Source: an uncultured delta proteobacterium
GTDB taxonomy: Bacteria > Desulfobacterota > RBG-13-43-22
Assembly (NCBI GenBank): GCA_963843145.1
Contig: CAWJJC010000020.1
Coordinates: forward strand, 160,001 to 224,000
Reading direction: 5' to 3'
DNA length: 64,000 nucleotides
The position numbers and the translations under genes were made by a program. The notes beneath the pieces are model-generated. The model saw only the letters and a program-made list of their open reading frames with translations, was not told the DNA's origin and ran no database searches. Shown here piece by piece: positions 17,134 to 46,188 of this stretch; within the stretch, counting starts at the first letter, position 1; each line of letters starts with the position of its first letter.

Positions 17134-17647
17134 GGATATCCTCGGCACCGGACTCTCTGAGCCAGCCGGCGACTTTTTCCCGTTCCCTGGGCGGGTAGTA
17201 AATCAGCAGGCCGAAACGGTTATCGGAAAAACGGGGGTCATAGTGGGCCGGAAGATGCAGCCTAGGTAGACGGGTGTGAATGAGCATTCCGGCGAAGGAA
17301 ATAAGGACCCCGAACAAAATCAGAAACTCAAAACCGATGATGACAAAGGGGATCCAGGGGATTATCGGCTTGCCGCCGACGATAAACCGCCACTGGATGA
17401 CCGTATAAACGGCCAGGGAAAAACCGGAGACCAGGCCGAAGAGACCGCCGAAGAGGGTGTAATAGCGCACCGGACTGGGGCCCGTATTCAAGGCCTCCTG
17501 GACCTCCGGGGTGGCCGAGGGACTGAAGACGGTAAAATCCAGGTTGGCCTGCTGGGCGGCCTTCAGCGCCCCCAAAAGATCGTCCAGATAGATAAAGATC
17601 CCCATCAAGGCCGGCTGGGCCAGCGGTCTTTTCTCCGCCTTAGACAT
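17117..17647 (-). CDS. actD: Alternative complex III subunit ActD (DUF3341)
   Basis: VGGKPI, FEFLILFG, YDPRFSDNRFG; start MSKAEKR at 17647. Confidence 0.85.
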   Translation of the reverse strand: MSKAEKRPLAQPALMGIFIYLDDLLGALKAAQQANLDFTVFSPSATPEVQEALNTGPSPVRYYTLFGGLFGLVSGFSLAVYTVIQWRFIVGGKPIIPWIPFVIIGFEFLILFGVLISFAGMLIHTRLPRLHLPAHYDPRFSDNRFGLLIYYPPREREKVAGWLRESGAEDIHDFAG

Positions 17648-18968: not shown

Positions 18969-18970
18969 CC

Positions 18971-21934: not shown

Positions 21935-22042
21935 GGATAACTTTCCGGGATAGAACAACAGTCAGGGATTTTTTAGGCATTGCCAATCGGACCTGGGGGC
22001 ATTTTACCTAAATAATAAAATAAGTAAATGGGGTTATTTGAT

Positions 22043-25478: not shown

Positions 25479-25566
25479 CGCTGTTCCCCCTCCGGAAGAC
25501 GCTCCCGATCTTCATTTCCCGGATATTCAATTTTAAACCACCGCTTTTCATTCCCGTCTCATTTTC

Positions 25567-27441
25567 CTATATAAAGAAAAAGTAAAGTGCCACCAATCCC
25601 ACTACGGACAAGGGCACCAAGAGGTTATACCGCAAACGGCCGGATTGAAGATAGGAGACCACCCGCCCGCTGCCCACGGTGAATTTACAGAACCCGTCGA
25701 TACCGCCGTCGATCACCTGCCGGTCATTACGGGTAAAGAGGTTGGCGAAAGTGCGATAAACCACCTGTTCCAAAAAGATCCGGTAAAAATGGTCCAGGTA
25801 CCAGCGCTCGGCCAGAAAGTTCCGGAGTAGCGGAATTCGCTCCACAAAACCTATCTGTTTGGAACCCTGGCGGCCGAACTCAAACCAGGCCAGCGCCAGG
25901 GCGGAGAAGACCAATCCCAGGGAACCGACGGTGACCCAGTCCCAATGAGCCGCGCTACTCTGCCGGCCCAGAAGGAAACCTTCCAGGGGGGCTTCAAAGA
26001 ACCCCAGCACACTAATAAGGATCGCCAGAATAATGAGCGGTCCGGCCATAGCCCAGTAAGCCGAGACGGACGGGCGACTTTCATTTGGATCATCCGGGTC
26101 CCTGTTTTTCGGGAAGAGGATGATCAAAATGGGCCGGAAGGTGTAATAGGGGGTCAGAAAGACGCCGAGAAACCCGACCAGGAGCCAGACGGGATTTTTC
26201 AGCCCGGTCAGCGCACCCAGGATGGCCTCCTTGCTGAAGAAACCCGCAAACGGCGGGAGTCCGGAAAGGCTGGCCCCGGCCAGAAGGAGACAGACCATGG
26301 GAATCTTCAGTCCCCGGCCCGAACGCCGGCCTATTTCGAACATATCATTGGTCCCAAAATAGGCGACCCAGACCCCCGAGCAGAGAAAGAGCAACGTCTT
26401 AAAGGCGGCGTGGGTCGTCAGATGAAAGATCCCGGCGAAGTACCCCCCTGCGCCTAAAGCCATAAGCATATATCCCAATTGGCTGATGGTGGAGTAGGCC
26501 CAGACTTTTTTGATATCCCGGTCCACCAGGGCCATGGTGGACGCCATGAGCATGGAGAGGCCCCCGATGGCCAGAATGACGGTCAGGGCCACGGTGGAAT
26601 GGCTGAAAAAGGGGAAAAGACGGGCCAACAAGTAGACTCCGGCGGCCACCATGGTGGCTGAATGGAGCAAGGCGCTGACCGGCGTGGGGCCTTCCATGGC
26701 ATCCGGGAGCCAGGTCAGGAGAGGGAACTGGGCGCTCTTGCCCACCACCCCGCCGAACATCAATAGCGCGCAAAGGGTGATGAGTCCTGAAGACAACCGG
26801 GCGGGGACTTCGGGGCTGTTCATTTCCAGGATATTCAGGTTGCCCAGGTTTAGCAGTACCAATAATAGCCCGATGAAAAAAGCGACATCTCCCAGACGGG
26901 TCATGACGAAGGCCTTTTTTCCGGCCTGGGTGGCGCTGAATTTTTCAAGCCAAAAACCGATCAACAGATAGGAGCAGAGGCCCACCAGCTCCCAAAAAAA
27001 ATAGAGCTGGAGCAGTGAAGAGGAGAGGGTCAGGGACATCATGGCCCAGGCGAAGAGGGAGTGGAGGGCGTAATAACGGGCCAAACCCGGGTCGCCGGCC
27101 ATGTAGCCCAGGGAGTAGACCTGCACCAGGAAACTGATTCCGGCCACCACGGTGAGCATGAGCAAGCTGGCCGGATCCAGTAAAAAGCCGAAGGGTATAG
27201 AGATATTCCCGCTGACGAACCACTGACCGGCGTGGAGGATCGGGTGCTCCAGGTCCCAATGGACCAGGAGCAGAAAAAGGGTGCTGCCCAGAGAAACCGC
27301 GACCGCCCCGATGGAGATAGCGGCGGAGATCCTGGGATAGGGCCGGACAAAAAGGATGATCAGCATAAACGCCAGGAAGGGCAGCGTGACCGCTGTCGCC
27401 ATGGCCAGGAGCGTCGGGTCCTTAAGCAAGGTCAGGAGCAT
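25567..27441 (-). CDS. nuoL: Complex I subunit L
   Basis: WELVGLCSYLLIGF, GKSAQFPL..WLPDAMEGPTPVSALLHSATMV, AYSTISQLG. Confidence 0.95.
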   Translation of the reverse strand: MLLTLLKDPTLLAMATAVTLPFLAFMLIILFVRPYPRISAAISIGAVAVSLGSTLFLLLVHWDLEHPILHAGQWFVSGNISIPFGFLLDPASLLMLTVVAGISFLVQVYSLGYMAGDPGLARYYALHSLFAWAMMSLTLSSSLLQLYFFWELVGLCSYLLIGFWLEKFSATQAGKKAFVMTRLGDVAFFIGLLLVLLNLGNLNILEMNSPEVPARLSSGLITLCALLMFGGVVGKSAQFPLLTWLPDAMEGPTPVSALLHSATMVAAGVYLLARLFPFFSHSTVALTVILAIGGLSMLMASTMALVDRDIKKVWAYSTISQLGYMLMALGAGGYFAGIFHLTTHAAFKTLLFLCSGVWVAYFGTNDMFEIGRRSGRGLKIPMVCLLLAGASLSGLPPFAGFFSKEAILGALTGLKNPVWLLVGFLGVFLTPYYTFRPILIILFPKNRDPDDPNESRPSVSAYWAMAGPLIILAILISVLGFFEAPLEGFLLGRQSSAAHWDWVTVGSLGLVFSALALAWFEFGRQGSKQIGFVERIPLLRNFLAERWYLDHFYRIFLEQVVYRTFANLFTRNDRQVIDGGIDGFCKFTVGSGRVVSYLQSGRLRYNLLVPLSVVGLVALYFFFI

Positions 27442-27471
27442 CGCTGTTCTCTGGATTCATTAAGCCAACAC

Positions 27472-27777
27472 CTACCATTTCAATAGCGTAAAGCGGTCCG
27501 CATCCACGGAACCTTTGGACCGGTAGGCCGCGATCACCAGGGTCAGACCTACCGCCACCTCGGTTGCGGATACCCCGAGGATAAAGAGGACAAAGGCTTG
27601 CCCCTCCAATTGGTGCCAGCGCAGGGCGGAGGCTATAAACAGGATGGCCGCGGCGTTCATCATGATCTCCACCCCGATGAGGGTCATGATCAGATTGCGC
27701 CGCGTCAGCAAGCAGATCAGACCCAGAATGAAGAGGAGCGCCGCCAGGAGAAAGACCTGGCTGTAAGGTACAATCAT
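27472..27777 (-). CDS. nuoK: Complex I subunit K
   Basis: MIVPYSQ...RRNLIMTLIGVEIMMNA...ATEVAVGL; ATG overlaps the nuoJ stop. Confidence 0.93.
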   Translation of the reverse strand: MIVPYSQVFLLAALLFILGLICLLTRRNLIMTLIGVEIMMNAAAILFIASALRWHQLEGQAFVLFILGVSATEVAVGLTLVIAAYRSKGSVDADRFTLLKW

Positions 27778-28292
27778 AGGTTCTCCCCGTTTTCTTCTTC
27801 CCCGCCTCTTTTTCCCAGTTGGATGACGGCCATCAGGCCGACGAGCAGGATCAGAGAAATAATCTCCACGGAAAGCCAGTACTTCTCGAAGATGAAACGG
27901 CCGAAGGCCTTGGGCGTGGCCACGGCCGGCTCCAAAGGGATCCGGCTGTGCGGGTCCGTAAAAACCAGAAGCAGGGCCACCGAAAGAAAGATCAACCCCA
28001 GACCCATGGCGGGCGCCCATTGGGCCGCCGTCATCCCGGCTTCAGCGGCCGCCTCTTCCTTCAGCAGCATAATGACGAAGAGAAACAGGACCATGATCGC
28101 GCCGGCATAGATGATGACTTCCAGGGCAGCCAAAAAGGGCGCCCCAAGGAGATAGAAAAGCAGCGCGCTCCCCAGAAAGGATAGGATCAGATAAACCACC
28201 GCATGCACCGGATGACGACGGGTAATCGCCAACCCGGTCGAAACCAGAATAAACCCGGCCAGCACATAAAAGATGACGGTGTAAACGGTCAT
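27774..28292 (-). CDS. nuoJ: Complex I subunit J
   Basis: HPVHAVVYL, IIYAGAIMVLFLFVIML. Confidence 0.93.
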   Translation of the reverse strand: MTVYTVIFYVLAGFILVSTGLAITRRHPVHAVVYLILSFLGSALLFYLLGAPFLAALEVIIYAGAIMVLFLFVIMLLKEEAAAEAGMTAAQWAPAMGLGLIFLSVALLLVFTDPHSRIPLEPAVATPKAFGRFIFEKYWLSVEIISLILLVGLMAVIQLGKRGGEEENGENL

Positions 28293-28347
28293 GAAGAATC
28301 CTTTCCCGGCGGCGCATCCTCAGGGGATATTGGCGAAGGGCCCCGGC

Positions 28348-28902
28348 TCAAGGCAGATTACTCCTCAGATCCACCGGTTTCTCCTCCTGGTTATGCTCCC
28401 CCTTGCCCCCGGCAACGTTTATGCCGGCCTGGCGATAAAAATTGTACTCCTTATTTTTTCCTCCGTGATCCACCAGAAGATCCTCTTTTTCCGCCAGCAG
28501 CGTCAAGACATCATAGCCGCAATGCTCAAAGGACGGGGTCAATTGGATAGCCAGCGTAGGACAGGCCTCTTCACAGAACCCGCAATAGATACAACGGGCG
28601 AAGTTGATCCGGAACCAGGGCGCCCAGCGACGCCCATCCGCTCGTTCGGCGGATTGCATGGAGATGCAGTTGACCGGACAGACCGCCGAACAGAGATAAC
28701 AGGCCACGCAGCGCTCCTCACCGTCCGGGTCCCGGGTCAGGATGATTCTGGCCCGGGAACGGGCAGGCAGCGGCCGTTTATACTCCGGGTACTGCTCGGT
28801 GACCGGTTTTCGGAAGAGATGTTTCAAGACGGTCCAAAAGCCTTTGGCCAATCCCGGCCCGACATCGGCCCCTATCTTTCGTATCCTGGAGGAGTCGGCC
28901 AT
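28348..28902 (-). CDS. nuoI: Complex I subunit I
   Basis: TEQYPE, CVACYLCSAVCP, CIYCGFCEEACP. Confidence 0.95.
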   Translation of the reverse strand: MADSSRIRKIGADVGPGLAKGFWTVLKHLFRKPVTEQYPEYKRPLPARSRARIILTRDPDGEERCVACYLCSAVCPVNCISMQSAERADGRRWAPWFRINFARCIYCGFCEEACPTLAIQLTPSFEHCGYDVLTLLAEKEDLLVDHGGKNKEYNFYRQAGINVAGGKGEHNQEEKPVDLRSNLP

Positions 28903-28907
28903 TTATT

Positions 28908-29909
28908 TTAAATTCCCCTGACCCATAAGATCATCCCGCCGGTAGCCATGATATTCAGCAAAGCCGCGGGGATGAGGATCTTCCAGCCCAAATCCATGAG
29001 CTGGTCATAACGGAGACGCGGCAGGGTGGTCCGCATCCAGATCATGACAAAAACCACGGCCAGGACCTTGATCAAAAACCAGATCATCGGCGGCAGCAGC
29101 GGACCGCGCCATCCGCCCAAAAAGAAAACCGCCATCAATCCGCCCAAGACGATCATGGTAATGTACTCACCCAAAAAATAAAGGCCGAAACGCATACCGC
29201 TGTATTCCAGATGATAGCCGGCCACCAGCTCGGCGTCGGCCTCTGGCAGGTCAAAGGGAATCCGTTTGCTTTCCGCCACGGCACTGATAAAGAAAATAAC
29301 CAGGGCCAGCGGCTGCACCAGGATAAAAGGGTAACGGGCCTGGGCGGCCACGATATCCACCAGGCTGAAGGAGCGGGCCAGCATGACCACGGGGACCAGC
29401 GCGAGTCCCAAAGAGAGTTCATAACTGATCATCTGGGCCCCGGCCCGGACGCCGCCCAGAAGGCTGTATTTGGAATGGGAGGCCCACCCTCCCAGGGCCA
29501 CCCCATAGACGCTGATCGAGGAAAGGGCCAGGACAAAAAGAAGGCCCACATTAAGATCAGTAATCACCAGGGGAACCGGCCGGCCCATGACGGTCCATCC
29601 CCGGCCGAAGGGGATGACGGCAAAAATCAGCAAGGCCGTGGCCGCCACGACGGCCGGGGCCACAAGAAATATAGGGCGGTCCGCCCCTTGGGGGACGGTG
29701 TCTTCCTTGGTCAGCATTTTGATGACATCGGCCAACGGCTGGAGCAGTCCGAATTTCCCCGCCCGGTTGGGGCCATAGCGGACCTGCATCCGCCCCAGAA
29801 GCTTTCGTTCGGCCAGGGTCAGGTAAGCGGCGAGGGTCAGCAGACCGACCAACACCAGGCCCAGCTTGATCAGGAGAAAGAGGTACCCTAAAATCCAGTC
29901 CGGGGTCAC
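28908..29909 (-). CDS. nuoH: Complex I subunit H
   Basis: ERKLLGRMQVRYGPNR, QPLADVIK, QMISYE, PFDLPEA..EL, PRLRYDQLM; GTG 29909 overlaps the nuoG stop. Confidence 0.95.
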   Translation of the reverse strand: MTPDWILGYLFLLIKLGLVLVGLLTLAAYLTLAERKLLGRMQVRYGPNRAGKFGLLQPLADVIKMLTKEDTVPQGADRPIFLVAPAVVAATALLIFAVIPFGRGWTVMGRPVPLVITDLNVGLLFVLALSSISVYGVALGGWASHSKYSLLGGVRAGAQMISYELSLGLALVPVVMLARSFSLVDIVAAQARYPFILVQPLALVIFFISAVAESKRIPFDLPEADAELVAGYHLEYSGMRFGLYFLGEYITMIVLGGLMAVFFLGGWRGPLLPPMIWFLIKVLAVVFVMIWMRTTLPRLRYDQLMDLGWKILIPAALLNIMATGGMILWVRGI

Positions 29910-32374
29910 GGGGTCTCCTGACTTTTTTTGATTTGATCCTGGGACACCCGCAGCGGATGGACGGTTATTTTTTGCCAAGCCAGTTGGTCCTGCCGCGGCA
30001 GGATCATGACCCCCGCCGCCAGATGTTCCTGGAGATCCACCGCTATTTCCAGCGGCCCCCCCTCGAGGGAGAGTACCGCCGCCTCCCCATTCCGGAACCC
30101 TAACCGGTCTCCCACCTCGGTCGGCAAGGTCAGACTGGGCCGGCGCACTGTTTCCCGGAGGGGGCGGGAATAGGCGGAAATTTCTTCGGTCCCAAAGGTC
30201 CGGTCGACCAACAGGAGTTCCAGGGAATCACCGGAGACGGAGCCTTTGCTTCTCTCCAGATCCTCTGCGCCATTCGTTGCCGCAGGGCCTCCCTCCCCCT
30301 GATCGAGCCCTTGATCGGGAATGAGACGAATTTCCTCCCGGAGATCCTTCGGGTTCTGCAGTCGGGAGAAGATCGGATTTTCTTCGGCCAGGACTGTCCA
30401 GAGGGTATTCAGGGAGAGGTCTTCCTCCGGAGAGAGGAGCCGGGCCAGTTCAGCCAGTAGCCGGCCGGCCGGCCGGGGTTCTCCTCCGGGGATATCCTTT
30501 CGGAAGCGGCGCGGCGGATGGCCTCCGGCGTTCAGTTGTTCGACCGAGGTACCGCCGCGATAAACCGGCGCCGCCCATTGAATCCGGCCTTCCTGATTGA
30601 CGAAAGCGCCTCCGGCTTCAAATATGGTTTGGGTGGGCAAAAAAATATCTGCCTGGCGAGCCGACGGAGTAGGCAGAAAATCCATTACCAATAGAAAATC
30701 GAGCTTTCCCAAAGCCTTTTCCAACCGGGCTCGATCGGGGAAAAGCCGGAAGGGATCGCACTCCACCAAGATCAGAGCGGCCAGGGAACCGTTTTCAATG
30801 GCCTCCAGGGTCTTCAAAAAGGAGGCCCCGGGAGAGGAGAGCAGGGCTGCGCCGAAGGCATTGGCCTCCCCCAAGAGATAGAAAAGGCCGGCCGGCTGCC
30901 CCCTGGACTGAAGGGTAAGGACCAGATCGAAAGCCAGGGCCGGGGTGGTTGGCCTGACGACATCGGTGCCGCAAACGATGACCGGTCGACGGCTTTGTCT
31001 CATTTTCCGGGTTATTTCCTCCAGCCGGTCTCCAAGGGCGGGATCCGCGTCCGGGGGGGGCACGGTCCCTCGAGTCAGAAGGGCCAGACAGAGATCCAGG
31101 GCATCCGGGGTGACGGGAAGGTGCTCAAAAGTCAGGGGCAGAAAGACCGGTCGGGGATCAAGGACGGCAATGAAGGCCCCCTTCCGGAAGGCCTGTCGCA
31201 GAGTCAGGGACAACAGGGGGGCTTCCTGCTCCGGATCGGCACCGATAACCAGGATGAAGTCCGACTGTTCGATGTCCCTCAGAGAAACCGCCACCCGCTC
31301 ATCCAGTCTGGAGACCGCCCTCTTCACCGCATTTTCTCTAAAAGGATCCACCAGGTAGGCCGGGTCGGGCCAGCCTTGCCTCCGGCTGAGGCCTCTTAAC
31401 ATCCCCTGGGTCTCCAGGCTGCTTCGGCCGGAACCCTGACCGGCAACGGCCCCGGGTCCTTCGCTCCGGGTGATCTCAGCCAGCCGATCGGCAGCGGCCC
31501 GGAGGGCCTGATCCAGGGGAACTTCTTCCCGGGAAATCCTGGCCCGACGGGGCCGCTCCGGATGGTTGGCATAGGCATAGCCGTACCGACCCCGGTCACA
31601 GATGAAATACCCGTTAACCCTCCTGCTGAAGCCGGCTTCCATCCGGACCACTTCGCGATACCGGGCGCTGGCCACGACCCGGCAGCCCAGGGAGCAGTGA
31701 ATACAGAGGGAAGGGCTTCGTTCATACTCCCAACGCCGGCCTTTATAACGGGACGGTTTGTCGGTCAGGACCCCGGTGGGACACAAATCGATGATATTGC
31801 CCGAGAAGGGACTTTCCAGCGGACCGGCGCTGAACCGGCCGAAATACATGTGCTTGGCGATCCCCAGCGCCCCGAAATCCCGGTACCCGGCGAACTCCTG
31901 GTAAAAGCGACGGCAGCGAAAGCAATGGATACAGCGGTTCATCTCCTGCTGGATAAAAGGGCCCAGGTCTTGATCGTTAAAGGTCCGCTTTTTTCCGGCG
32001 TAGCGGCGGATGCCGTGCCCGCCGGCCACGGTCAGGTCCTGGAGCAGGCAGTGGCCCCCTTCGTCGCAAACCGGGCAGTCATGGGGGTGATTCATCATCA
32101 GCCACTCGATCACCTGGCGGCGAAAATCGACCGCCTCCGCATCGGTGGTGGAGACCACCATTCCCTCCCCGGCTTCCACCATGCAGCTCATTTTCACCCC
32201 TTTGACCGGGCCTTCCAGAAATTTCACGGCACACATCCGGCAGGCCCCCAGCGATCCCAGGGCCGGATGATAACAGAAGCGGGGGATGACGATGCCCAGC
32301 GCTTCAGCCGCTTCAATGACCTTGGTCCCTGCAGGGACCTCGATCTCCAGATTATCGATGATCAATTGGGGCAT
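29906..32374 (-). CDS. nuoG: Complex I subunit G (long E. coli-type, with N7 cluster)
   Basis: CYHP..GACRMC, HPHDCPVCDEGGHC, CIHCFRC, CIHCSLGC...CDRGR. Confidence 0.95.
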   Translation of the reverse strand: MPQLIIDNLEIEVPAGTKVIEAAEALGIVIPRFCYHPALGSLGACRMCAVKFLEGPVKGVKMSCMVEAGEGMVVSTTDAEAVDFRRQVIEWLMMNHPHDCPVCDEGGHCLLQDLTVAGGHGIRRYAGKKRTFNDQDLGPFIQQEMNRCIHCFRCRRFYQEFAGYRDFGALGIAKHMYFGRFSAGPLESPFSGNIIDLCPTGVLTDKPSRYKGRRWEYERSPSLCIHCSLGCRVVASARYREVVRMEAGFSRRVNGYFICDRGRYGYAYANHPERPRRARISREEVPLDQALRAAADRLAEITRSEGPGAVAGQGSGRSSLETQGMLRGLSRRQGWPDPAYLVDPFRENAVKRAVSRLDERVAVSLRDIEQSDFILVIGADPEQEAPLLSLTLRQAFRKGAFIAVLDPRPVFLPLTFEHLPVTPDALDLCLALLTRGTVPPPDADPALGDRLEEITRKMRQSRRPVIVCGTDVVRPTTPALAFDLVLTLQSRGQPAGLFYLLGEANAFGAALLSSPGASFLKTLEAIENGSLAALILVECDPFRLFPDRARLEKALGKLDFLLVMDFLPTPSARQADIFLPTQTIFEAGGAFVNQEGRIQWAAPVYRGGTSVEQLNAGGHPPRRFRKDIPGGEPRPAGRLLAELARLLSPEEDLSLNTLWTVLAEENPIFSRLQNPKDLREEIRLIPDQGLDQGEGGPAATNGAEDLERSKGSVSGDSLELLLVDRTFGTEEISAYSRPLRETVRRPSLTLPTEVGDRLGFRNGEAAVLSLEGGPLEIAVDLQEHLAAGVMILPRQDQLAWQKITVHPLRVSQDQIKKSQETP

Positions 32375-32409
32375 TTTCAGTTATACCCTTAAAACATTTT
32401 GATTTTTTC

Positions 32410-32716: not shown

Positions 32717-32736
32717 TAACCGTCGCATTTAGTGAC

Positions 32737-34038
32737 TCAGGTGGAAAAACCTGTAGCCCGCTCCGTTTTAAAAGGACATTTTTTTTGGGAAATGTGTTCG
32801 TGTATTTCCTCGACAAAGTCATCCACCAGTCCCCTGACCGGCGTCGCCGCGCCGGGGGCAAAAGCGCAGTAGGCGTTGGACAGGTGTTCGCACATCTCCC
32901 GCAGTCTGGGAATAAAGGCTTCCTTTCCTTCCCCTGCTTCAATACGCCGGAGCAAATCCGCCATGTAAGGCAGTCCTTCGCGGCAAGGGGTACAAAAGCC
33001 GCAGGATTCCCGGGCAAAAAATTGAATCAGGTTCAAGGTGGCGCCCACCAGGCAGGTCTTCTGATCGAAGACTACGATGGCCCCGGTTCCCAAACGATGC
33101 CCCGGACCTATCTTTTTAAAGGAATCAAAATCCATGGGAATATCGTAAAATCCTTTAGGCACAAACCGGGTCGAGGCCCCCCCCGGCAAACAGGTCTTGT
33201 ATTCGGATCCGGATTGCAATCCGCCGGCCTGCACTTCGATAATTTCAGATAAAGGGGTCCCGAAAGGCAGCTCAAAACAACCGGGACGTTTGACCCGCCC
33301 GCTGACGGAGTAGATCTTGTTGCCGGCGCAGGTCTTGCTCCGGGACAAGTTCCGAAACCACTCGGGGCCGTTCTTCAAGATAAAGGGCACGTAGGCCAGC
33401 GTTTCGGCATTGTTGACTATGGTAGGCCGACCCCAGAGTCCTTCCGAGGTGAGGTGACCTTCTATATTGGGATGCGGTCTTTTCCCTTCCAGGGCGTGAA
33501 CCAGGCCTTTGGTCTCCCCGCAGATGTACCGGCCCGCGCTCCGATGGACAGCCACCTGCAGGGAATGCCCGCTCCCCAGGATGTTCCGGCCCAAAAAGCC
33601 CGCCGCCGCGGCCTCCTCCAATGCCGTCTCGAATATCCCGGCCGCGCTTTCATAGGAAGGCCGGATAAAGAAGAAGCCCTTCTCCGCCGAAACGGCATAG
33701 GAAGCAATGATCAGCCCTTCGAGGATACTATGGGGATTGGCCGCTACCAGCGTTCTATCCTTGAAAGTTCCGGGCTCCATTTCGTCCGTGTTGGAGACGA
33801 TAACCCTCGGAAAAAGCGCGTCCTCGGCCACCAAAGACCACTTGCGTCCGGTGGGGAAACCCGCCCCGCCGCGGCCCTGAAGACCGGAATTGAGGACAAT
33901 CTGTTTGACCTCCTGGGGAGTATGCTTCCCGAGGACGTCCGCCAAAGCCTGGTAACCGCCGCTCTCCCGGTAGGCCGCCAGTCCAAGCGATTGACCGGGC
34001 TGAACATTTTTCAAGAGCACCCGTTCCGAGCTACCCAT
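32737..34038 (-). CDS. nuoF: Complex I flavoprotein subunit F with an atypical nucleotide-binding site
   Basis: GRGGAGFPTGRKW, DEMEPGTFKDR, AGRYICGE, ESCGFCTPCREG...C; start MGSSERVL overlaps the nuoE stop. Confidence 0.95.
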   Translation of the reverse strand: MGSSERVLLKNVQPGQSLGLAAYRESGGYQALADVLGKHTPQEVKQIVLNSGLQGRGGAGFPTGRKWSLVAEDALFPRVIVSNTDEMEPGTFKDRTLVAANPHSILEGLIIASYAVSAEKGFFFIRPSYESAAGIFETALEEAAAAGFLGRNILGSGHSLQVAVHRSAGRYICGETKGLVHALEGKRPHPNIEGHLTSEGLWGRPTIVNNAETLAYVPFILKNGPEWFRNLSRSKTCAGNKIYSVSGRVKRPGCFELPFGTPLSEIIEVQAGGLQSGSEYKTCLPGGASTRFVPKGFYDIPMDFDSFKKIGPGHRLGTGAIVVFDQKTCLVGATLNLIQFFARESCGFCTPCREGLPYMADLLRRIEAGEGKEAFIPRLREMCEHLSNAYCAFAPGAATPVRGLVDDFVEEIHEHISQKKCPFKTERATGFST

Positions 34039-34532
34039 TAGCGATCCGATACCGGAATCTCTTGCCCGGTTTTCAGTTTTTCCAGAATCTGATCGATGCG
34101 CTCGGGGGTCAGCGGACCGTAAGGCACCCCGTTGACCAGCATGGCCGGCGCGTGATCGCAATACCCGATACAGGCCGAAGGCAGAATGGTGAACAGCTTG
34201 TCGGGAGTGATTTCCCCCACCCGGACGCCCAACTTCCGGCAAAGGTAGGCCACGACCGATTCCTCCCCAAACATCCAGCAGACGACTCCGTCACAGGCGT
34301 GAATGACGAATTTCCCCACCGGCTCCCGGTAGATGAAATCGTAGAAAGTGGCGATTTCCTCCAGTTCCAGGGGGGTCAGGCCCAGGAGATCCGCCCCTTC
34401 CTGAAGGGCCTCATCACTGAGATAGCCGCACTCTTTCTGCAGGGCGAACATCACCTCCACAGCCAGCTCCCGGGGATGATCGGTCTCGGCCATCTTTTGC
34501 CGGAGTAACTCCAAGTTCTCGCTGGACAGCAT
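34038..34532 (-). CDS. nuoE: Complex I subunit E
   Basis: IATFY, CDGVVC...CIGYCDHAP 2Fe-2S motif. Confidence 0.93.
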   Translation of the reverse strand: MLSSENLELLRQKMAETDHPRELAVEVMFALQKECGYLSDEALQEGADLLGLTPLELEEIATFYDFIYREPVGKFVIHACDGVVCWMFGEESVVAYLCRKLGVRVGEITPDKLFTILPSACIGYCDHAPAMLVNGVPYGPLTPERIDQILEKLKTGQEIPVSDR

Positions 34533-34542
34533 CCCCGGCCCC

Positions 34543-36999
34543 CTAACGATCGATATCCGGCATGATATAGTCAATGGAGCCGATAATGGCCAGCAGGTCG
34601 GACAACAGGCCGCCGCGAGCCATCAAAGGCATGGCCTGCATGTTGGCAAACCCGGGGGTCCGGATCCGCATCCGGTAGGCCCGAGGCAGACCGTCACTGA
34701 CCACGTAGTAGCCCTGTTCCCCGCGGGGGGCCTCCACCGCGGCATAGGCCTCCCCGCGGGGGATTTTCGGCCCCCGGGTGACATTGACAAAATGATGAAT
34801 AAGGCTTTCAATATCCCTCAGGGTATCGGTTTTCCGAGGAACGGTGTAGCGGTAGTCCTCACTGCCATACCGGCCGGCCGGCATCCTCCGGACGGCCTGT
34901 TCGATGATCCGCAGGCTCTGGCGCAGTTCCTCGACCCGCACCCGGTAACGGGCGTAGCAGTCCCCTTCCCTGGCCGTGGGAATATCAAAATCAAAATGCT
35001 CATAGGAGGAATAGGGGAATTGCTTGCGCAAATCCCAATCGAGGCCGCAGGCCCGCAGGTTGGGACCGGTCACCCCCCAATCCATGGCCTCCTCCAGGGA
35101 CAAGGGCCCGACGCCGCGGGTTCGGGCCTCAAAAATAGGGTTCCGGGTAGCCAGGGCTTCATACTCTTTGATCCGCTCCGGGAAAATCTTCAGGAAGGCC
35201 TCAATCGGTTCTTTCCAGCCCTGCGGCAAGTCGTCAGCCACCCCCCCGATTCGGAACCAGGAGGGATGGAGCCGACCTCCGGTGATCAGCTCGATAATAT
35301 CCATAACCTTTTCGCGGTCCCGAAAGGTGTAAAAAACCGGACCAATGGCGCCCACGTCCTGCAGGAAGGTGCCGAACCAGACCAGGTGATTGCTCAGTCG
35401 AAAAAATTCACCAAGCAGCACCCGGATGTATTGCGCCCGTTCCGGGACCTGGATCCCGGTTAGAATTTCAACCGAATTCAAGTAAGCCAGGTTATTGTAC
35501 ACCCCGGAAAGATAATCCACCCGGTCGGTGTAGGGGATGAATTGATGCCAGGACTGGTGCTCGCCGATTTTTTCCACCGAACGGTGGTGATAGCCGATGT
35601 CCAGGTCGATAGCGGAAATCCTTTCGCCCTCCAGGGAAAGGATGAAACGTATCAGGCCGTGAGAGCCCGGGTGATGAGGACCCAGGTTCAGGATCATTTC
35701 CCGGCCCTCTTCCCCGGCTTGGCGGACGAGGATGCCGGCGTCCAGAGGCTGGTATTTTTCGGCCTCGGCCCTGGTGTAGGGGGCCATCTCGGTGGCCCGG
35801 CCCGGATAATCCTTTCGTAAGGGATGGCCTTCCCAGTCGTGGGGGAGGAGAATCCGGCGCAGATCCGGATGTCCTTGAAAGCGGATTCCGAAGAGGTCAA
35901 AGACTTCCCGCTCGTACCAGTTGGCCGAGGGCCAGATATCGGTGATGGTCGGGGTTACCGGGTTTTTATCGGCTAGAGGAACCTTGAGACGAAGACGCCC
36001 GGCCGGTTCGAAGGACAGTAAATGATAAACCAGCGTATACGCCGGGTATTCTTGGGGGTCCGGACGGGGAGGCTTATCCCGGACTATTTCTTTCCCCACC
36101 GTGCCGTCTTCGATCTCGAAATTCCCCTGGCCCCGTCGGGCCGATTCATCCACAGCAGTCAGATCATCCAGGCGTAGGAACCTGGGACGGGATTCGGTCT
36201 TCAGGAAACGGAGGACCTCTTTAATCCGGTCCCCGGCGACCTCAAAGGTGGCCATATCCGAGGTTTGGGGAGTCTGGTTGAGGGCCTCGCCGAACTTTTC
36301 CTTTAGCACCGCGGCCAAGGAGCGGTCCCGGTCCGTCAGTTCTATTCTGCGGGGCGGCGGCGTCCACATCAGGTCGGAGCGGCTATCCCAAAATCGAGGA
36401 GGGGTGACGGAGGTGCCTCGGACAGGCAGGCCTTCATAGCCCGGCCCCCGGGTATCCCTGGATTTTGTCTGCCCATCGACCAGCACGGGTTTTTGAGACC
36501 CTTGAGTCCCTCCGGGCAGATGGAAAATCGAACGACTCGGCCTTTCCGACCCGATCTTCTTTTGCAGCAGCAGCAATCCCTGCAAGACGGCCTCCGGCCG
36601 AGGCGGGCAACCCGGAATATAGACATCTACGGGCAAAATTTGATCAATGCCCTGGACCACGCTATAGCCATCATACATCCCGCCGCAGTTGCTGCAGGAG
36701 CCCATGGAGATCACCCATTTCGGTTCAGGCATCTGCTCATAAAACCGCAGGATCGCCGGCGCCACTTTTTTAAAAATGGTCCCCGAGGTGATCAGGAGAT
36801 CGGACTGGCGGGGGGAACCGCGCAGGACCTCGGCCCCAAAACGGGCCATATCATAGCGGGGGGTCAGGGCCGTCGACTCCTCGATGAAGCAGCAGGAAAG
36901 TCCAAAAAAGGCGGGCCAGAGGGAATACTTCCGCGACCAGTTGACCAGCAGGTCCAAGCGGTCCAGCGCTTTATTTTTGAGCTGATCGAAGGGTTTCAA
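34543..36999 (-). CDS. nuoBCD: Fused complex I subunits B-C-D
   Basis: GLSCC, SPRQSD, GCPPRPE (B); [18 protein letters not shown] (C); [24 protein letters not shown] (D), all in one 818-aa ORF. Confidence 0.95.
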
Positions 37000-37405
37000 G
37001 GCCCGCTACCCACTCCAATCCCCGTTTCTTCCAAATATAATAAAGGCCGGCCAGCAGGAGCACAATGAAACCGGAAATCTGGAGCCAGCCGGACCAGCCC
37101 AGCTCCAGGATGGCCACGGCCCAGGCGAAAATAAAGACCGCCTCGACATCGAAAATAAGGAAAAAAACGGCCACCCGGTAAAAAGGAACGGGATAGGCGA
37201 GCCGCGCCGGTCCGCTGGGGATCAGCCCGCATTCAAAGGGCAGCTCTTTATTCGCGTTGGTTTTCTTTTCTCCCAGCCAGGAAGCAAGAAAAAGAAGGAG
37301 GACCACCAAGGCCAGGATCATCAGGCCGTAAAGAAAAAGGGCCGCGAAACCCGGTTCCCAGGGGGTTAACGTACCGGCAGTGTCTAAAGGCTGCATCGTT
37401 ATCAT
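36971..37405 (-). CDS. nuoA: Complex I subunit A
   Basis: [15 protein letters not shown], 3 TM; ATG 37405 overlaps the tal stop (ATGA). Confidence 0.92.
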
Positions 37406-38268
37406 TTCAGCAACAAAGAGTTCCAATCCTTGGAAAAACCGTTCATCCCCTTGATCGTCAGCTCATGGCTCAGATCAAATTCCTGCCAGGGTCGACTGAG
37501 GTCGATCTCCCGATAAGGGATCGCTTTTAAGCCCCCGGCAGCGTAATCAACCCCCGCCTCGGGAAGGGGAAGTCCCTGGTCGCCCCATTCCTTCAAGATG
37601 GCCGCGGGTGCGGTGATGATATCCGATCCCAGCTTCAAGGCATAAAGCAGATGATCTCTGGTTCTGACGCTGGCGCTCAGAACTTCCACATGGCCGTCTC
37701 CCGGCCCATACATCTGGAGAATGTGGGCGATCAGGTCCATTCCGTTTTCTCCCCGATCATCCAAACGGCCGATGAAGGGCGAGACGAAGACCTCCCCCTT
37801 CTTGGCCCCCCGGGTGGCCGCGTAAACGGCGGCCGCCTGCTCCTGGGAAAAACAGAGGGTCATATTGACCCGCAGCCCTTTTTGGACGGCCCCTTCGGCG
37901 GCCGTCAGCCCTTCCCGGGAAGTGGGAAATTTGATGTGGGCGTTGGGGATCCAGGAAAACATTTCCTGGCCCTGGACCAACATCCTTTCCGCCGGGGTGG
38001 CCGGGTCGGCATAGACTTCAATGGAGACGGACCCCTGAGGAATCAGCCTGGAGATCTCTCCGACCACCTGCCGGTAGAAGTCCAGGATCTCTCTTTCGCT
38101 GAACTTCCCCCCCTGGTCCAAATGCCGGCGCGCTTCCGGGTTTTTGGAGATGAGCGTCGGATTGGTCGTCTGACCGTCGAGGAATCCCAAACGACTGATG
38201 ATTTCCCTGGTTTCCTCCGGATTTCCCCCGTCGAGGAATATACGGCTCTTCAGCTTCTCCGGTCTCAT
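37402..38268 (-). CDS. tal: Transaldolase
   Basis: FLDG, TTNPTLI, SIEV (Glu), IKFP, NMTLCFS, SPFIGR (Phe); the Glu/Phe pair favours transaldolase over fructose-6-phosphate aldolase. Confidence 0.88.
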   Translation of the reverse strand: MRPEKLKSRIFLDGGNPEETREIISRLGFLDGQTTNPTLISKNPEARRHLDQGGKFSEREILDFYRQVVGEISRLIPQGSVSIEVYADPATPAERMLVQGQEMFSWIPNAHIKFPTSREGLTAAEGAVQKGLRVNMTLCFSQEQAAAVYAATRGAKKGEVFVSPFIGRLDDRGENGMDLIAHILQMYGPGDGHVEVLSASVRTRDHLLYALKLGSDIITAPAAILKEWGDQGLPLPEAGVDYAAGGLKAIPYREIDLSRPWQEFDLSHELTIKGMNGFSKDWNSLLLK

Positions 38269-38309: not shown

Positions 38310-39866
38310 CTATTTTTCCTTTCCCTCCCCGACCTCACAACGCTGCAGGGCCTCATGGTAATGATGCAGATTGGGCATCAGCCAACTGCGGCCATCCCGG
38401 GCGATTAAATGTTCGGCGGACTCCGGCCCCCAGGTGCCGACCTGATAATTGGGAAAATTTGCGGGTACCACCTCTTCCCAGGCTTCCAAAATAGGCGTAA
38501 TAACATTCCAGGCCGCTTCCGCCTGATCCGCGCGCATGAAGAGCGTGGCATTGCCCAGCATGACATCCAGAAGCAAGGTTTCGTAGGCCTCCGGAGAGGA
38601 GACCTTAAAGGCCTCCTGATAATAAAACTCCATATCCACCGGGCTCAGACGCAAGGCCTGACCCGGGTGTTTGGCCTGAAGGCGAAGCAGAATGCCTTCC
38701 AGCGGCTGGATGGAAATAAGCAGGCGATTCGGCCGCCAATCTAAAACTGTCGAGGAAGGGAAGATCTGATGGGGGACCGGCCGAAACTGGATATTGATCT
38801 CCGAAACCTTGGCCGGCAGGCGTTTTCCGGTACGTAAATAAAAGGGAACATCCTGCCAGCGCCAGTTGTCCACAAAGAGTTTGAGGGCGGCATAGGTCTC
38901 GGTCGAGGATTCGGGAGAGACGTTCACTTCGCCGCGATAACCGGGGACGTGTTCTCCCTCGATCCAGCCGGCTTCGTACTGGCCGCGGGCGGCAAATTTG
39001 TGTATCTCATCGATCGGAATAGGCCGGATGGCATGGAGGACATCCACCTTTTTATTCCGGATTTCATTGTCGTCAAAGGAGATCATGGGTTCCATGGCCA
39101 TCAGGCAGAGGACCTGGATAAGGTGATTCTGGATCATGTCGCGGAGCGCCCCGGCCTGTTCATAGTAATGGCCGCGCTGTCCGACTCCTACCTGCTCCGC
39201 CACGGTAATCTGCACATGATCAATGTAGCGTCGGCTCCAAATGGGCTCAAAGAGGGCATTAGCAAACCGGAAGGCCAGGATATTTTGGACGGTCTCCTTC
39301 CCCAGATAATGGTCAATGCGGTAAATCTGGGATTCGTCAAAGATCCGCGTCAGAAGCTTATTCAAAGATTTGGCCGAGGCCAGGTCCCGGCCGAAAGGTT
39401 TTTCGATCACAATCCGGGTTCGCTCCCGTTCCAGGGGGATCCGGGCCTTGCCCAACTGCTCCACCACGGTCTCAATGGCTTGCGGCGGCACGGCCAGATA
39501 AAGGATACGGACGGCCTTGACGCCCCATTCCTTATCCAGGGTGGAAAATTGTTTAGCCAGTTGGGAATAAATCGGGGGGGCGTCGAATTCGGCGTCCTGG
39601 AAGGTCAGGTGAGCGGCAAAGGCCTTCCATTTCCGGCCATCGGTTTCCTTTCGCCGGGAGAACTGGATCACCCCCTGACGTAACTGTTCAATCAACGCCT
39701 TGTCGCCCTGGGATTTGTGGCCCAGGCCGATAACCAGGAATTTTTCAGGCAACCACTGATCCAGAAAGAGATCATAGAGGGCCGGAATCAGCTTGCGCCG
39801 GGCCAGGTCGCCGCCCATGCCGAAGATAACAAAGACCGTCGATTGGGGATGGAGTTCAGCCGACAA
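38310..39866 (-). CDS. zwf: Glucose-6-phosphate 1-dehydrogenase
   Basis: GxxGDLA, EKPFG, RIDHYLGKE, RDMIQNH, LRTGKR; TTG start with AAGGAG RBS. Confidence 0.96.
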   Translation of the reverse strand: MSAELHPQSTVFVIFGMGGDLARRKLIPALYDLFLDQWLPEKFLVIGLGHKSQGDKALIEQLRQGVIQFSRRKETDGRKWKAFAAHLTFQDAEFDAPPIYSQLAKQFSTLDKEWGVKAVRILYLAVPPQAIETVVEQLGKARIPLERERTRIVIEKPFGRDLASAKSLNKLLTRIFDESQIYRIDHYLGKETVQNILAFRFANALFEPIWSRRYIDHVQITVAEQVGVGQRGHYYEQAGALRDMIQNHLIQVLCLMAMEPMISFDDNEIRNKKVDVLHAIRPIPIDEIHKFAARGQYEAGWIEGEHVPGYRGEVNVSPESSTETYAALKLFVDNWRWQDVPFYLRTGKRLPAKVSEINIQFRPVPHQIFPSSTVLDWRPNRLLISIQPLEGILLRLQAKHPGQALRLSPVDMEFYYQEAFKVSSPEAYETLLLDVMLGNATLFMRADQAEAAWNVITPILEAWEEVVPANFPNYQVGTWGPESAEHLIARDGRSWLMPNLHHYHEALQRCEVGEGKEK

Positions 39867-39875
39867 GGGGTCTCC

Positions 39876-41295
39876 TTATTCCGTGGTCCATTGGGTGTGG
39901 AAGATGCCCGGTCCATCAACCCGTTCATAGGTGTGGGCCCCGAAGTAATCCCGCTGGGCCTGAATGAGATTGGCCGGTAACCAGGGACTGCGAAGGCCGT
40001 CATAATAGGCCAGTGAGGCCATCAGACCAGGTACGGGGATTCCCAGCTCAACGGCGGTCGTTATCACCGTTCGCAAGGCATCCTGGCAGGGCTTCATCCG
40101 TTCGGCCAGATCAGGATCCAGGAGGGGATGGATCAAGTCCGGTTGAACCCGGTAGGCGGCCAGTATTTTTTCCAATAGAAAAGCCCGAATGATACAGCCG
40201 CCGCTCCAGATACGAACCACTTCCCCCAGATCCAAACCATAGTGATAGGTCCGGGAGGCCTTTCGGAGCAGGGTCAGACCCTGACCATAGGTCAGAATCA
40301 ACCCCCCATAAAGGGCTTCGCCGAGTTGGGCGATAAATCCTTCCCGCTTCCCCTGAAAAGGGAGGATACTCCTCTCCCGGCATCCGGCTGACGGCTTGCC
40401 TTTCCTGTTTACAACCGGACAGGTCCCGCATGACCACAGCCAGATCGATGGTGGGCACCGGTACCTGCAATTCCAGGGCATTCACGGAAGTCCACATTCC
40501 GGTCCCTTTTTGCCCGGCCTGATCCAGAATCTTATCGATCAAGCGGCCTCCGCTCTTCTCATCCTCCTGACGAAAGATCCGGGCGGTAATCTCGATTAAG
40601 TAGGCCTGGAGCTCGGTCTGATTCCAACGGTCGAAAATCAAAGACAAGGCATCGTTGTTCAAACCCAGTCCCTGTTTGAGAAGCTGGTAGGTCTCGGCGA
40701 TCAATTGCATGAAGCCGTATTCAATCCCGTTATGGACCATTTTAACATAGTGGCCGGCCGAACCGGGGCCCAGGTGGGCAACACAGGGGATATCCTTCAC
40801 CTTGGCGGCGATGGCCTCGAGGATCGGACGCACCCGTTCATAGGCTTGCGGAGTCCCGCCGGGCATCAGACTGGGACCGTAGCGGGCGCCTAACCCTCCT
40901 CCGGATATACCCAGTCCCAGATAAAGAAAACCCTTTCCGGCCAGTTCCCGCTCTCGACGATCGGTATCGCTGAAAAAGGAATTGCCGCCATCAATAATCA
41001 AGTCGTTTGGTTCCAGAAGGGGTAGAAGCTCCTGGATCAGCTCGTCCACCGGCCGGCCCGCGGAGATCAGCATCAGGACGGCCCGGGGTTTACGCAGGCG
41101 GCCCATGAATTCAGACAGGCTGTAGCCGGTTCCGATGGACCGCCCGGCGCCCTCCGTCTCCATAAATTCCTTTGTTTTTTCAGCCGTCCGGTTGTAGACC
41201 GCGATGGGAATTCCCTGGTCGGCAATATTTAGGGCCAGATTACGCCCCATCTCACCCAGACCAATCAGACCGATCTCATATTGATGTTCGCTCAT
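39876..41295 (-). CDS. gnd: 6-phosphogluconate dehydrogenase, decarboxylating, NADP-type (frameshift near 40370)
   Basis: GLGEMG, YNRT, DGGN, KMVHNGIEY, QKGTG; the second frame gives IWSGGCIIR and QAQRDYFGAHTY. Confidence 0.93.
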
Positions 41296-41380
41296 GTTTG
41301 CTCGCCTTTTCAAATAGCTACCTCAAAGGTTCCCCTTTCAGCCCCCATTTGACCAAGCGGGCCGGAGGGGATATATCAAC

Positions 41381-46025: not shown

Positions 46026-46098
46026 GGAATGATTCCCGGCCAAACCGATCTCTTGACCCTGAAGTCCATTTGGCCCGCTCTCTCTAGCAGAGAGACGC

Positions 46099-46170: not shown

Positions 46171-46188
46171 GAATGTCCAGGGCCGAGG

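What the first reader, a model, noticed from the sequence alone, without database searches (positions are those of the whole stretch)
33420..33560. NuoF nucleotide site remodelled: possible natural NADPH-oxidising complex I
Seen: HRSAGRYICGETKGLVHALEGKRPHPNIEGHLT in place of the conserved GAGRYICGEETALxxSLEGxRxxPRxKPPFP. The second Glu (E. coli NuoF E183 position) is Thr (33511-33513), followed by Lys, and the KPPFP adenine-contact segment is replaced. FMN and N3 motifs are intact. Established: that Glu binds the adenosine ribose hydroxyls and disfavours NADPH, and substituting it in E. coli raises NADPH activity. Inference: with the gnd-zwf linkage, this may be a proton-pumping NADPH:quinone oxidoreductase.
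Basis: partly seen in the sequence, partly recalled or inferred. Interest (0 to 1): 0.82.

Follow-up and report, generated by a model that had tools for sequence, protein, structure and literature searches.

The report
Complex I with rebuilt NADH-binding pocket
A soil bacterium's respiratory complex I has lost the residues that normally make the enzyme specific for NADH, sits in one gene string with sugar-oxidising enzymes, and belongs to a whole unnoticed clade that may burn NADPH as well as NADH.

Summary
NuoF (window 32737-34038, minus strand) reads GETKGL...HPNIEGHLT where E. coli NuoF reads GEETAL...RSKPPFP. The second Glu (E. coli E183) is Thr at 33511-33513. FMN and N3 motifs are intact.

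It is not a one-off. All 120 best database homologues and 80 of 80 related genome loci lack this Glu. With the motif columns removed, they form one well-supported Desulfobacterota clade of NuoBCD-fused complex I. The window's "K-type" is a derived subclade, and its rebuilt segment is among the most conserved parts of the protein.

Loss of the Glu goes with Phe to His/Arg at the adenine-stacking position (200 of 218). The same pair of changes separates NADP+-using T. kivui HydB from NAD+-using A. woodii HydB. However, NAD-using A. mobile WorB also has Ser/His.

Linkage to zwf/gnd is recurrent but not universal:
- K-type: 7 of 11 loci.
- Other non-Glu: 8 of 62.
- Canonical upstream: 0 of 18, with one canonical locus carrying NAD-type gnd-zwf downstream.

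The linked Gnd is NADP-type. The linked Zwf is the His-type, which discriminates poorly between cofactors.

Best reading (about 0.5): a proton-pumping NAD(P)H:quinone oxidoreductase with relaxed or NADPH-shifted specificity. No biochemistry exists.

The parts
32737..34038 (-). nuoF (433 aa), the FMN/N3 subunit with the rebuilt adenosine pocket
   Evidence: Pfam Complex1_51K, SLBB and NADH_4Fe-4S. Best solved relative is E. coli NuoF, E 2.8e-116.
33406..33546 (-). Remodelled nucleotide-site segment, residues 165-211. Key codons: Thr176 = 33511-33513, Lys177 = 33508-33510, His195 = 33454-33456.
   Evidence: Conservation rank 5 of 386 windows in 92 K-type sequences.
34038..34574 (-). nuoE
   Evidence: Pfam 2Fe-2S_thioredx.
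34543..36999 (-). nuoBCD fusion (818 aa)
   Evidence: Pfam Oxidored_q6, Complex1_30kDa and Complex1_49kDa in one ORF.
36971..37426 (-). nuoA
   Evidence: Pfam Oxidored_q4.
37402..38268 (-). tal (transaldolase), directly upstream of nuoA
   Evidence: Pfam TAL_FSA. Adjacency is kept in L043, L045, L046, L071, L074 and L076.
38310..39866 (-). zwf, His-type glucose-6-phosphate dehydrogenase
   Evidence: Pfam G6PD_N and G6PD_C. His50 aligns with the Arg of G[FY]AR in solved G6PDs.
39876..41313 (-). gnd (6-phosphogluconate dehydrogenase) with the VYNRT signature, split by a 1-nt frameshift near 40363
   Evidence: Pfam hits on two ORFs and translation. The gene is an intact 484 aa in L071. One X2 contig lacks one base at 40363.
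22825..32374 (-). nuoG, H, I, J, K, L, M, N
   Evidence: Pfam.
15886..21958 (-). Alternative-complex-III-like genes: a Mo-oxidoreductase/FeS fusion, two NrfD-type genes and ActD
   Evidence: Pfam.
12966..15325 (-). cbb3-type oxidase genes (COX1 family; FixO plus cytochrome c)
   Evidence: Pfam.
5011..7557 (-). alpha-glucan phosphorylase-like gene on the same strand
   Evidence: Pfam Phosphorylase and DUF3417.

Best explanation
This is the NuoF of a complete, 12-gene, NuoBCD-fused (clade-E-like) proton-pumping complex I. Its adenosine sub-site has been rebuilt, while the FMN/nicotinamide site and the Fe-S ligands are unchanged.

Three changes define the rebuilt site:
- The Glu that hydrogen-bonds the adenosine ribose is replaced by Thr (Ala in most relatives). 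By recall, this Glu also disfavours a 2'-phosphate.
- The next residue is an invariant Lys.
- The adenine-stacking Phe of the PPF motif is replaced by a conserved His.

The most likely consequence is that the enzyme no longer excludes NADPH. It would then work as an NAD(P)H:menaquinone oxidoreductase, dual-specific or NADPH-leaning.

In the window's lineage it is strung together with Gnd (NADP-type), a His-type Zwf, Tal, an ACIII-like complex and a cbb3 oxidase. Reducing equivalents from an oxidative pentose-phosphate route would therefore enter the respiratory chain directly.

Shown: the sequence changes, their conservation, the clade, and the gene order. Inferred: the change of nucleotide specificity, the direction of electron flow, and co-transcription.
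For: 1. Glu to Thr, Thr to Lys, and loss of KPPFP, in a gap-free alignment to E. coli NuoF.

2. Contact roles of the replaced residues:
- Passages of review PMC11677225 say the adenine stacks on Phe70/Phe205 (T. thermophilus) or Phe71/Tyr205 (A. aeolicus). They also say the adenosine ribose is held by Glu185 and Lys76.
- PMC7171172 says Lys202 bonds NADH.

3. The rebuilt segment is among the most conserved parts of the protein in 92 K-type sequences. Conservation: H181 92%, H189 93%, E193 97%, H195 98%, L196 100%, T197 97%.

4. Across 237 distinct sequences:
- All 19 with Glu keep Phe/Tyr five residues before the conserved GLW.
- Of 218 without Glu, 200 have His (170) or Arg (30) there, 17 have Tyr and 1 has Leu.
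- At least two origins of the Glu loss are forced by starred branches, and the tree minimum is 4 changes.

5. Solved precedent. T. kivui HydB (8A6T) operates on NADP+ and reads GESTAL...RPPRT. Its Arg340 is named as a nucleotide contact. A. woodii HydB (7Q4V) uses NAD+ and reads GEETAL...RPPFP.

6. Upstream zwf/gnd within 10 kb: K-type 7 of 11 loci, other non-Glu 8 of 62, Glu-Glu 0 of 18.

7. Gnd signatures:
- Gnd linked to a non-Glu NuoF carries YNR[T/S/H] or HNRT in 10 of 10 loci read; an 11th locus (L165) holds only a 32%-identical Gnd-like gene with HARH and is not counted.
- The only Gnd linked to a Glu-Glu NuoF (L152) carries YDKD, with Asp, the NAD-type sign.

8. In L152 the Zwf has Asp-Met at the discriminating place, against Gly-His or Gly-Arg beside non-Glu NuoF.

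9. Among 401 sampled genomes of the phylum, zwf was found in 20 of 28 with a non-Glu NuoF, against 141 of 401 overall. This was counted by hand.
Against: - There is no enzymology for any member of the clade.
- A. mobile WorB (9MQX) has Ser at the Glu position and His at the Phe position. It works with NAD and was solved with NAD(H) bound. The signature is therefore compatible with NADH.
- The operon's Zwf has His instead of the NADP-binding Arg. The P. putida His-type enzyme does not discriminate and yields mostly NADH.
- The genome also holds an Arg-type Zwf elsewhere.
- 58 of 73 assessable non-Glu loci have no zwf/gnd upstream.
- One canonical locus is PPP-linked, so linkage is not tied to the variant alone.
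- In the K-type the Lys200-equivalent region carries a conserved Glu (E193), which does not obviously favour a phosphate.
- The co-variation of Gnd type with NuoF type rests on a single Glu-Glu locus. Two of its relatives lack the linkage.
- The loci are related to each other, so the counts are not independent.
- The 80 loci were found with patterns that include the motif itself.
- The biochemical effect of E183 substitutions is recalled from Morina et al. 2011. I saw that paper only as a title in reference lists, and it was not held.
Confidence: 0.5

Rival explanations
1. The enzyme is still an NADH-specific, or strongly NADH-preferring, complex I. The adenosine pocket was rebuilt for another reason, such as tuning NADH/NAD+ affinity, limiting ROS, or adapting to menaquinone energetics. 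PPP linkage would then reflect common regulation of a sugar-respiration module whose Zwf mainly makes NADH.
For: - NAD-using WorB has the same Ser/His combination.
- The linked Zwf is the His-type, which is NADH-leaning in P. putida.
- Most non-Glu loci are not PPP-linked.
- A canonical locus is also PPP-linked.
- No other ~430-aa Glu-Glu NuoF was found in the own genome. The four other PF01512 hits are long HydB-like proteins. NADH may therefore need this enzyme.
Against: - The ribose-binding Glu is otherwise kept in every canonical sequence examined: 19 of 19 here, plus E. coli.
- Losing it removes a named NADH contact.
- The gain of four conserved basic residues (K177, H181, H189, H195) is not expected for a pure NADH site.
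- The linked Gnd is NADP-type in all non-Glu loci, but NAD-type in the one Glu-Glu locus.
Confidence: 0.33
2. The site binds NADP(H), but the complex runs mainly in reverse, driving quinol-to-NADP+ electron flow with proton-motive force. Alternatively, it uses another nicotinamide nucleotide. Together with Zwf and Gnd it would form an NADPH-supply regulon.
For: - The evidence for a changed adenosine pocket is the same as for the best explanation.
- Zwf and Gnd are themselves NADPH producers, so co-expression with an NADPH producer is conceivable.
- Passages of Spero et al. 2015 note that complex I is known or predicted to synthesise NADH in some bacteria.
Against: - The same strand carries an ACIII-like complex, a cbb3 oxidase and a glucan phosphorylase. 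This reads as a forward chain from sugar to oxygen.
- Reverse flow from menaquinol to NADP+ is energetically costly. This is an inference with no tool result behind it.
Confidence: 0.12
3. It is an assembly artefact or a decaying gene. The assembly shows frameshifts in gnd and in the norB-like gene.
For: gnd and a norB-like gene are each split into two ORFs. The same-genus genome G169 has nuoF in two pieces.
Against: - The nuoF ORF is intact and aligns end to end with E. coli NuoF.
- The motif is conserved in 92 sequences from many samples.
- Short-read contigs reproduce the segment.
Confidence: 0.03

Closest known systems
E. coli complex I NuoF (solved in 7AWT, 7P61 and others) and clade E complex I of Spero et al. 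2015
   Same: - It is the best solved match (E 2.8e-116, residues 16-418 aligned).
- The FMN loop and N3 cysteines are the same.
- NuoC and NuoD are fused, which the paper gives as the mark of clade E (passages).
   Different: - NuoB is fused as well.
- The second Glu, the PPF Phe and the preceding Lys are replaced.
- The operon is preceded by gnd-zwf-tal.
Engineered E. coli NuoF E183 variants (Morina et al. 2011; recalled, seen only as a title)
   Same: The position substituted is the same. By recall, these variants gain NADPH oxidation coupled to proton translocation.
   Different: Here the change is natural and clade-wide. It is accompanied by a rebuilt adenine loop and a conserved neighbouring Lys.
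Thermoanaerobacter kivui HydB (8A6T), the NADP+-using NuoF-like subunit of HydABC
   Same: - It has a non-Glu (Ser) at the second-Glu position.
- It has a basic residue (Arg340) at the adenine-stacking Phe position.
- Several subtypes in this clade even read PPRT, like HydB.
   Different: - It belongs to a soluble bifurcating hydrogenase, not complex I.
- The K-type has His rather than Arg, plus Lys177.
Acetomicrobium mobile WorB (9MQX)
   Same: It has Ser at the Glu position and His five residues before GLW.
   Different: It works with NAD and was solved with NAD(H) bound (passages). This is the main caution against reading the signature as NADP-specific.
Pseudomonas putida G6PDH-B (His68 type)
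   Same: The operon's Zwf has His at the same discriminating position.
   Different: It comes from a different phylum. The kinetics of the window's Zwf are unknown.

Membership tests
Complex I subunit NuoF / 51 kDa | Complex1_51K FMN domain, SLBB domain and NADH_4Fe-4S domain | tested here: met
   Pfam scores of 132.5, 32.9 and 82 bits, all above cut-off.
Complex I subunit NuoF / 51 kDa | Gly-rich FMN loop and the four Cys ligands of cluster N3 | tested here: met
   Aligned identically to E. coli NuoF.
Complex I subunit NuoF / 51 kDa | Encoded between nuoE and nuoG in a full nuo operon | tested here: met
   nuoA, BCD, E, F, G, H, I, J, K, L, M and N are present.
Complex I subunit NuoF / 51 kDa | Canonical NADH adenosine contacts: ribose-binding Glu, Lys202-equivalent, and adenine-stacking Phe/Tyr | tested here: not met
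   Glu is Thr and PPF is GHL/EGH, with one residue lost. Contact roles come from passages.
Clade E complex I (Spero et al. 2015) | Fused NuoCD | tested here: met
   One 818-aa ORF holds the NuoB, NuoC and NuoD domains. The paper mentions 12-subunit BCD-fused forms. I did not place the operon on the paper's own tree.
NADP(H)-type NuoF-like site, as in T. kivui HydB | No Glu at the second-Glu position | tested here: met
   Thr in the window, Ser in 8A6T.
NADP(H)-type NuoF-like site, as in T. kivui HydB | Arg at the adenine-stacking position (Arg340) | tested here: inconclusive
   The window has His195 in that register, counted back from GLW. NAD-using WorB also has His there.
NADP(H)-type NuoF-like site, as in T. 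kivui HydB | Measured preference for NADP(H) | not testable with these tools
   Needs enzymology.

The most novel reading that the evidence does not exclude
The whole Desulfobacterota non-Glu clade consists of natural proton-pumping NADPH-preferring NADPH:menaquinone oxidoreductases. In the window's lineage one is hard-wired, in a single same-strand gene string, to Gnd, Zwf, Tal, an ACIII-like complex, a cbb3 oxidase and a glucan phosphorylase. That would give a self-contained stored-glucan-to-oxygen respiratory chain running on NADPH in a lineage thought of as anaerobic.
Probability: 0.25. Interest if true: 0.85.

Novelty: new variant of a known kind. Interest (0 to 1): 0.62.

Why it matters
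Complex I is treated as strictly NADH-dependent. By recall, NADPH use has been obtained only by engineering the very residue that is missing here.

A natural, conserved, clade-wide rebuild of the adenosine pocket would have three consequences:
- It would show how nucleotide specificity evolves in the NuoF family. The same co-substitution appears to have arisen repeatedly in complex I, and it is also seen in a bifurcating hydrogenase.
- It would change how reducing power is budgeted in models of Desulfobacterota, including cultured Solidesulfovibrio and Pseudodesulfovibrio, which carry related variants.
- It would offer ready-made templates for NADPH-respiring strains.

My searches found no paper describing natural NuoF variants at this position. 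That is a limited library, and supplements were closed.

Tried and rejected
Double-frameshift origin of the odd segment: rejected. The alternative frames give a stop or unrelated residues, homologues conserve the segment, and contigs reproduce it.

One-off mutation: rejected.

More Glu-Glu loci with PPP linkage, to test the Gnd/Zwf co-variation. I searched 61 genomes of the order of G394. The relatives G421 and G427 have no gnd/zwf downstream, and G408's contig is too short to tell. The co-variation therefore stays at one Glu-Glu locus.

More characterised comparators. A second PDB query printed the same five alignments. I did not see the motifs of T. maritima HydB, S. ovata NfnB or HoxF.

Literature:
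- Morina 2011 (PMC3186356) and Berrisford and Sazanov 2009 (PMC2785608) are not held.
- A search for E183 variant names together with nuoF found nothing relevant.
- Searches gave no report of a natural NADPH complex I.

Expression: no RNA holder was listed.

Regex attempts failed and were redone.

Tools not run, with reasons:
- Structure prediction and fold search return no coordinates, so they could not place the 2'-phosphate.
- Complex prediction scores only protein partners.
- The search of protein representatives and the protein-atlas search were not needed, because the family is known.

Rows dropped:
- The tree left out sequences under 380 aa (L043) and identical rows.
- The tree used 91 of 123 rows after thinning at 86% identity and dropped alignment columns 217-261.
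- One search counted only loci with at least 7.6 kb upstream. It deduplicated on residues 50-380. It looked only upstream, so L152's downstream gnd-zwf is not in that count.
- In most non-Glu loci the region downstream of nuoN was not covered.
Full report
**What is there.** The finding lies in nuoF, on the minus strand at 32737-34038 (433 aa from the ATG that overlaps the nuoE stop).
- Pfam finds the three NuoF domains.
- The best solved relative is E. coli NuoF (E 2.8e-116).
- The alignment is gap-free through GRYICGE. Counting along chain 7awt_F, E182 is kept, E183 is Thr (33511-33513) and T184 is Lys.
- RSKPPFP is replaced by NIEGHL, with one residue fewer.
- The FMN loop and all four N3 cysteines are intact.
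The only omission is that the gene reads on the minus strand.

**The operon.** One strand carries gnd (39876-41313, split by a 1-nt frameshift), zwf, tal, nuoA, a nuoBCD fusion, and nuoE, F, G, H, I, J, K, L, M, N.
- Downstream on the same strand lie an alternative-complex-III-like set, cbb3-type oxidase genes, a heavy-metal P-type ATPase and an alpha-glucan phosphorylase-like gene.
- Fused NuoCD is the mark of clade E complex I in Spero et al. 2015, which also mentions BCD-fused forms (passages).

**Not a one-off.**
- All of the 120 best database homologues (62-94% identical) lack the second Glu.
- In 401 sampled genomes of the phylum, 27 of the 30 best loci lack it. The three at 52-53% identity read GEETAL...KPPFP.
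- Record titles place the clade in Thermodesulfobacteriota: Desulfatiglandales, Desulfobaccales, Syntrophobacterales and Desulfovibrionaceae. It includes cultured Solidesulfovibrio, Pseudodesulfovibrio and Desulfovibrio.
- All 80 loci lack the Glu. One of the six search patterns was the motif itself, so this is not an unbiased count.

**Subtypes.** Four subtypes were seen:
- The window's K-type: GE[A/T]KGL...HPNIEGHLT.
- GEA[S/T]AQ...K..HM.
- GEASAQ...KGGP[R/H][T/M].
- GE[G/V/A]TA...PPPYPT, which keeps the aromatic residue.

**Phylogeny.** I built an IQ-TREE quick tree (LG+G4) of 91 rows, thinned at 86% identity, with the motif columns 217-261 removed.
- It separates 68 non-Glu rows from 23 others (18 Glu-Glu and 5 non-Glu) by a branch with 100% SH-aLRT support.
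- The K-type is one group of 14 (100%), nested among the non-Glu rows.
- The Glu state needs at least 4 changes on the tree, and starred branches force at least 2.
- FastTree on 123 rows with the motif columns included agrees.
- The root is not inferred.

**Selection.** In 92 K-type sequences the segment 165-211 has mean entropy 0.42, against 0.96 for the whole protein. It ranks 5th of 386 windows.
- H181, H189, E193, H195, L196 and T197 are 92-100% conserved.
- Position 176 is Ala in 76% and otherwise mostly Thr.
- Lys177 and Gly178 are 100% conserved by construction, because they were used to select the set.
- This is a maintained site, not a decayed one.

**What the replaced residues do.**
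- Passages of a 2024 review say that adenine stacks on Phe70/Phe205 (T. thermophilus) or Phe71/Tyr205 (A. aeolicus). They also say that the adenosine ribose is held by Glu185 and Lys76.
- Another paper says Lys202 bonds NADH.
- I equate these with the second Glu of GEE and the aromatic residue of PPF/PPY by motif. I did not test this with a printed T. thermophilus alignment.
- Gap-free length series among the subtypes put His195 of the K-type in the register of that aromatic residue, five residues before the conserved GLW.
- Across 237 distinct sequences, all 19 with Glu have Phe or Tyr there. Of 218 without Glu, 170 have His, 30 Arg, 17 Tyr and 1 Leu.

**Characterised comparators.**
- T. kivui HydABC operates on NADP+ and A. 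woodii HydABC on NAD+. The paper's figure legend names Phe205 and Arg340 as nucleotide contacts in the T. kivui enzyme (passages).
- In the printed alignments T. kivui HydB (8A6T) reads GESTAL...RPPRT, with Arg340 at the Phe position. A. woodii HydB (7Q4V) reads GEETAL...RPPFP.
- This is the same pair of changes as in the present clade.
- Against it, A. mobile WorB (9MQX) reads GESSAL with His at the same -5 position. It needs NAD and was solved with NAD(H) bound.
- The signature is therefore suggestive, not diagnostic.

**PPP linkage.** I used tblastn with the window's Tal, Zwf and Gnd on deduplicated loci with at least 7.6 kb upstream.
- zwf or gnd lies within 10 kb upstream in 7 of 11 K-type loci. 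Six are on the same strand, and one (L080) is on the opposite strand.
- The same holds in 8 of 62 other non-Glu loci and 0 of 18 Glu-Glu loci.
- Within the K-type, direct tal-nuoA adjacency is confined to the window's subclade. It was seen in all 6 assessable members plus G169; two members were not assessable. It is missing from the Desulfatiglandales subclade.
- One Glu-Glu locus (L152, genome G394) has gnd-zwf just downstream of the operon on the same strand. Its relatives G421 and G427 do not.
- zwf was found in 141 of 401 phylum genomes, and in 20 of the 28 with a non-Glu NuoF. This was counted by hand. Related genomes are not independent.

**Cofactor signatures of the linked dehydrogenases.**
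- For 6PGDH, Asn32-Arg33-Thr34 bind the 2'-phosphate, and NAD-preferring enzymes have Asp at the first place (abstract and passages).
- The window's Gnd reads VYNRT.
- All 10 Gnd genes read beside non-Glu NuoF read YNR[T/S/H] or HNRT (L165's 32%-identical Gnd-like gene, HARH, is left out). The one beside a Glu-Glu NuoF reads YDKD.
- For G6PDH, the Arg of the beta2-alpha2 loop marks NADP or dual use. His-type P. putida G6PDH-B does not discriminate (specificity constant 0.86) and yields mostly NADH (passages).
- The window's Zwf has His50 aligned to that Arg in the five printed alignments (four different proteins).
- Most linked Zwf genes are His-type, two are Arg-type, and L152's has Asp-Met.
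- The genome has a second, Arg-type Zwf on contig C32.
- The operon therefore probably yields both NADH and NADPH.

**Other NuoF-like genes in the genome.**
- The four other PF01512 hits are long HydB-like proteins.
- One is a NuoF-GltD-like fusion. It lies next to an 11-subunit complex-I-like operon on C28.

**Reading.**
- The most economical reading is a complex I that no longer excludes NADPH. I give about 0.5 to NADPH being a physiological substrate, and about half of that to real NADPH preference.
- NADH-only remains a serious rival (0.33).
The site and the linkage are real, but the variant is widespread, mostly without PPP linkage. The linked Zwf is not NADP-specific, and a NAD-using homologue shares the signature.
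- As far as my searches reach, no paper describes this clade.

Noticed in passing
window 5011-41313, minus strand: One long same-strand string: glucan phosphorylase-like gene, heavy-metal P-type ATPase, DsbD_2, cytochrome c genes, cbb3-type oxidase, ACIII-like genes, 12 nuo genes, tal, zwf and gnd. It reads as a sugar-to-oxygen respiratory island in a Desulfobacterota genome.
   Followed up: partly
window 39876-41313 (near 40363): gnd is split by a single-base frameshift. The gene is an intact 484 aa in relative L071. One short contig of run X2 (depth 2.4) lacks one base at 40363, which hints at an assembly error or a strain difference.
   Followed up: partly
window 42047-44387: A NorB-like gene (cytochrome-c-like domain plus COX1) is split into two overlapping ORFs, probably by another frameshift.
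   Followed up: no
L011 (G000:C28:736000-755900): A second complex-I-like locus holds nuoA, B, C, D, H, I, J, K, an extra antiporter-type subunit, and L, M, N. It is followed by two NuoE-like genes, an 825-aa NuoF-GltD-like fusion (FMN domain plus Fer4_20 plus Pyr_redox_2), a partial NuoF-like gene and a NuoG-like gene.
   Followed up: partly
L152 (G394:C1:1428500-1448400): A canonical Glu-Glu nuo operon is followed on the same strand by a gnd with YDKD and a zwf with Asp-Met at the discriminating loop. Both are NAD-type signs. It is the mirror image of the window's arrangement, but it is a single case.
   Followed up: partly
L154, L160, L161, L163, L165: Independent losses of the second Glu occur in a different, mostly canonical, NuoBCD/CD clade. 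Arg, His or Leu replaces the aromatic residue.
   Followed up: partly
L176 (G000:C32:54000-59329): A second zwf of the genome is Arg-type and 42.5% identical to the operon's Zwf. One search reported one TAA inside that match.
   Followed up: partly
G169:C5:27191-28484 (L043): In the same-genus genome, nuoF is found in two pieces with stops between them, and zwf next to tal matches only at its N-terminus. This may be assembly quality or decay.
   Followed up: no
window 45564-47877 and 345-2063: An ABC1/UbiB-like kinase and an SRPBCC protein lie upstream of the island. A PAS-GGDEF protein lies at the window's start.
   Followed up: no
window 32375-32736: A gap of about 360 nt without an assigned gene lies between nuoF and nuoG.
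   Followed up: no
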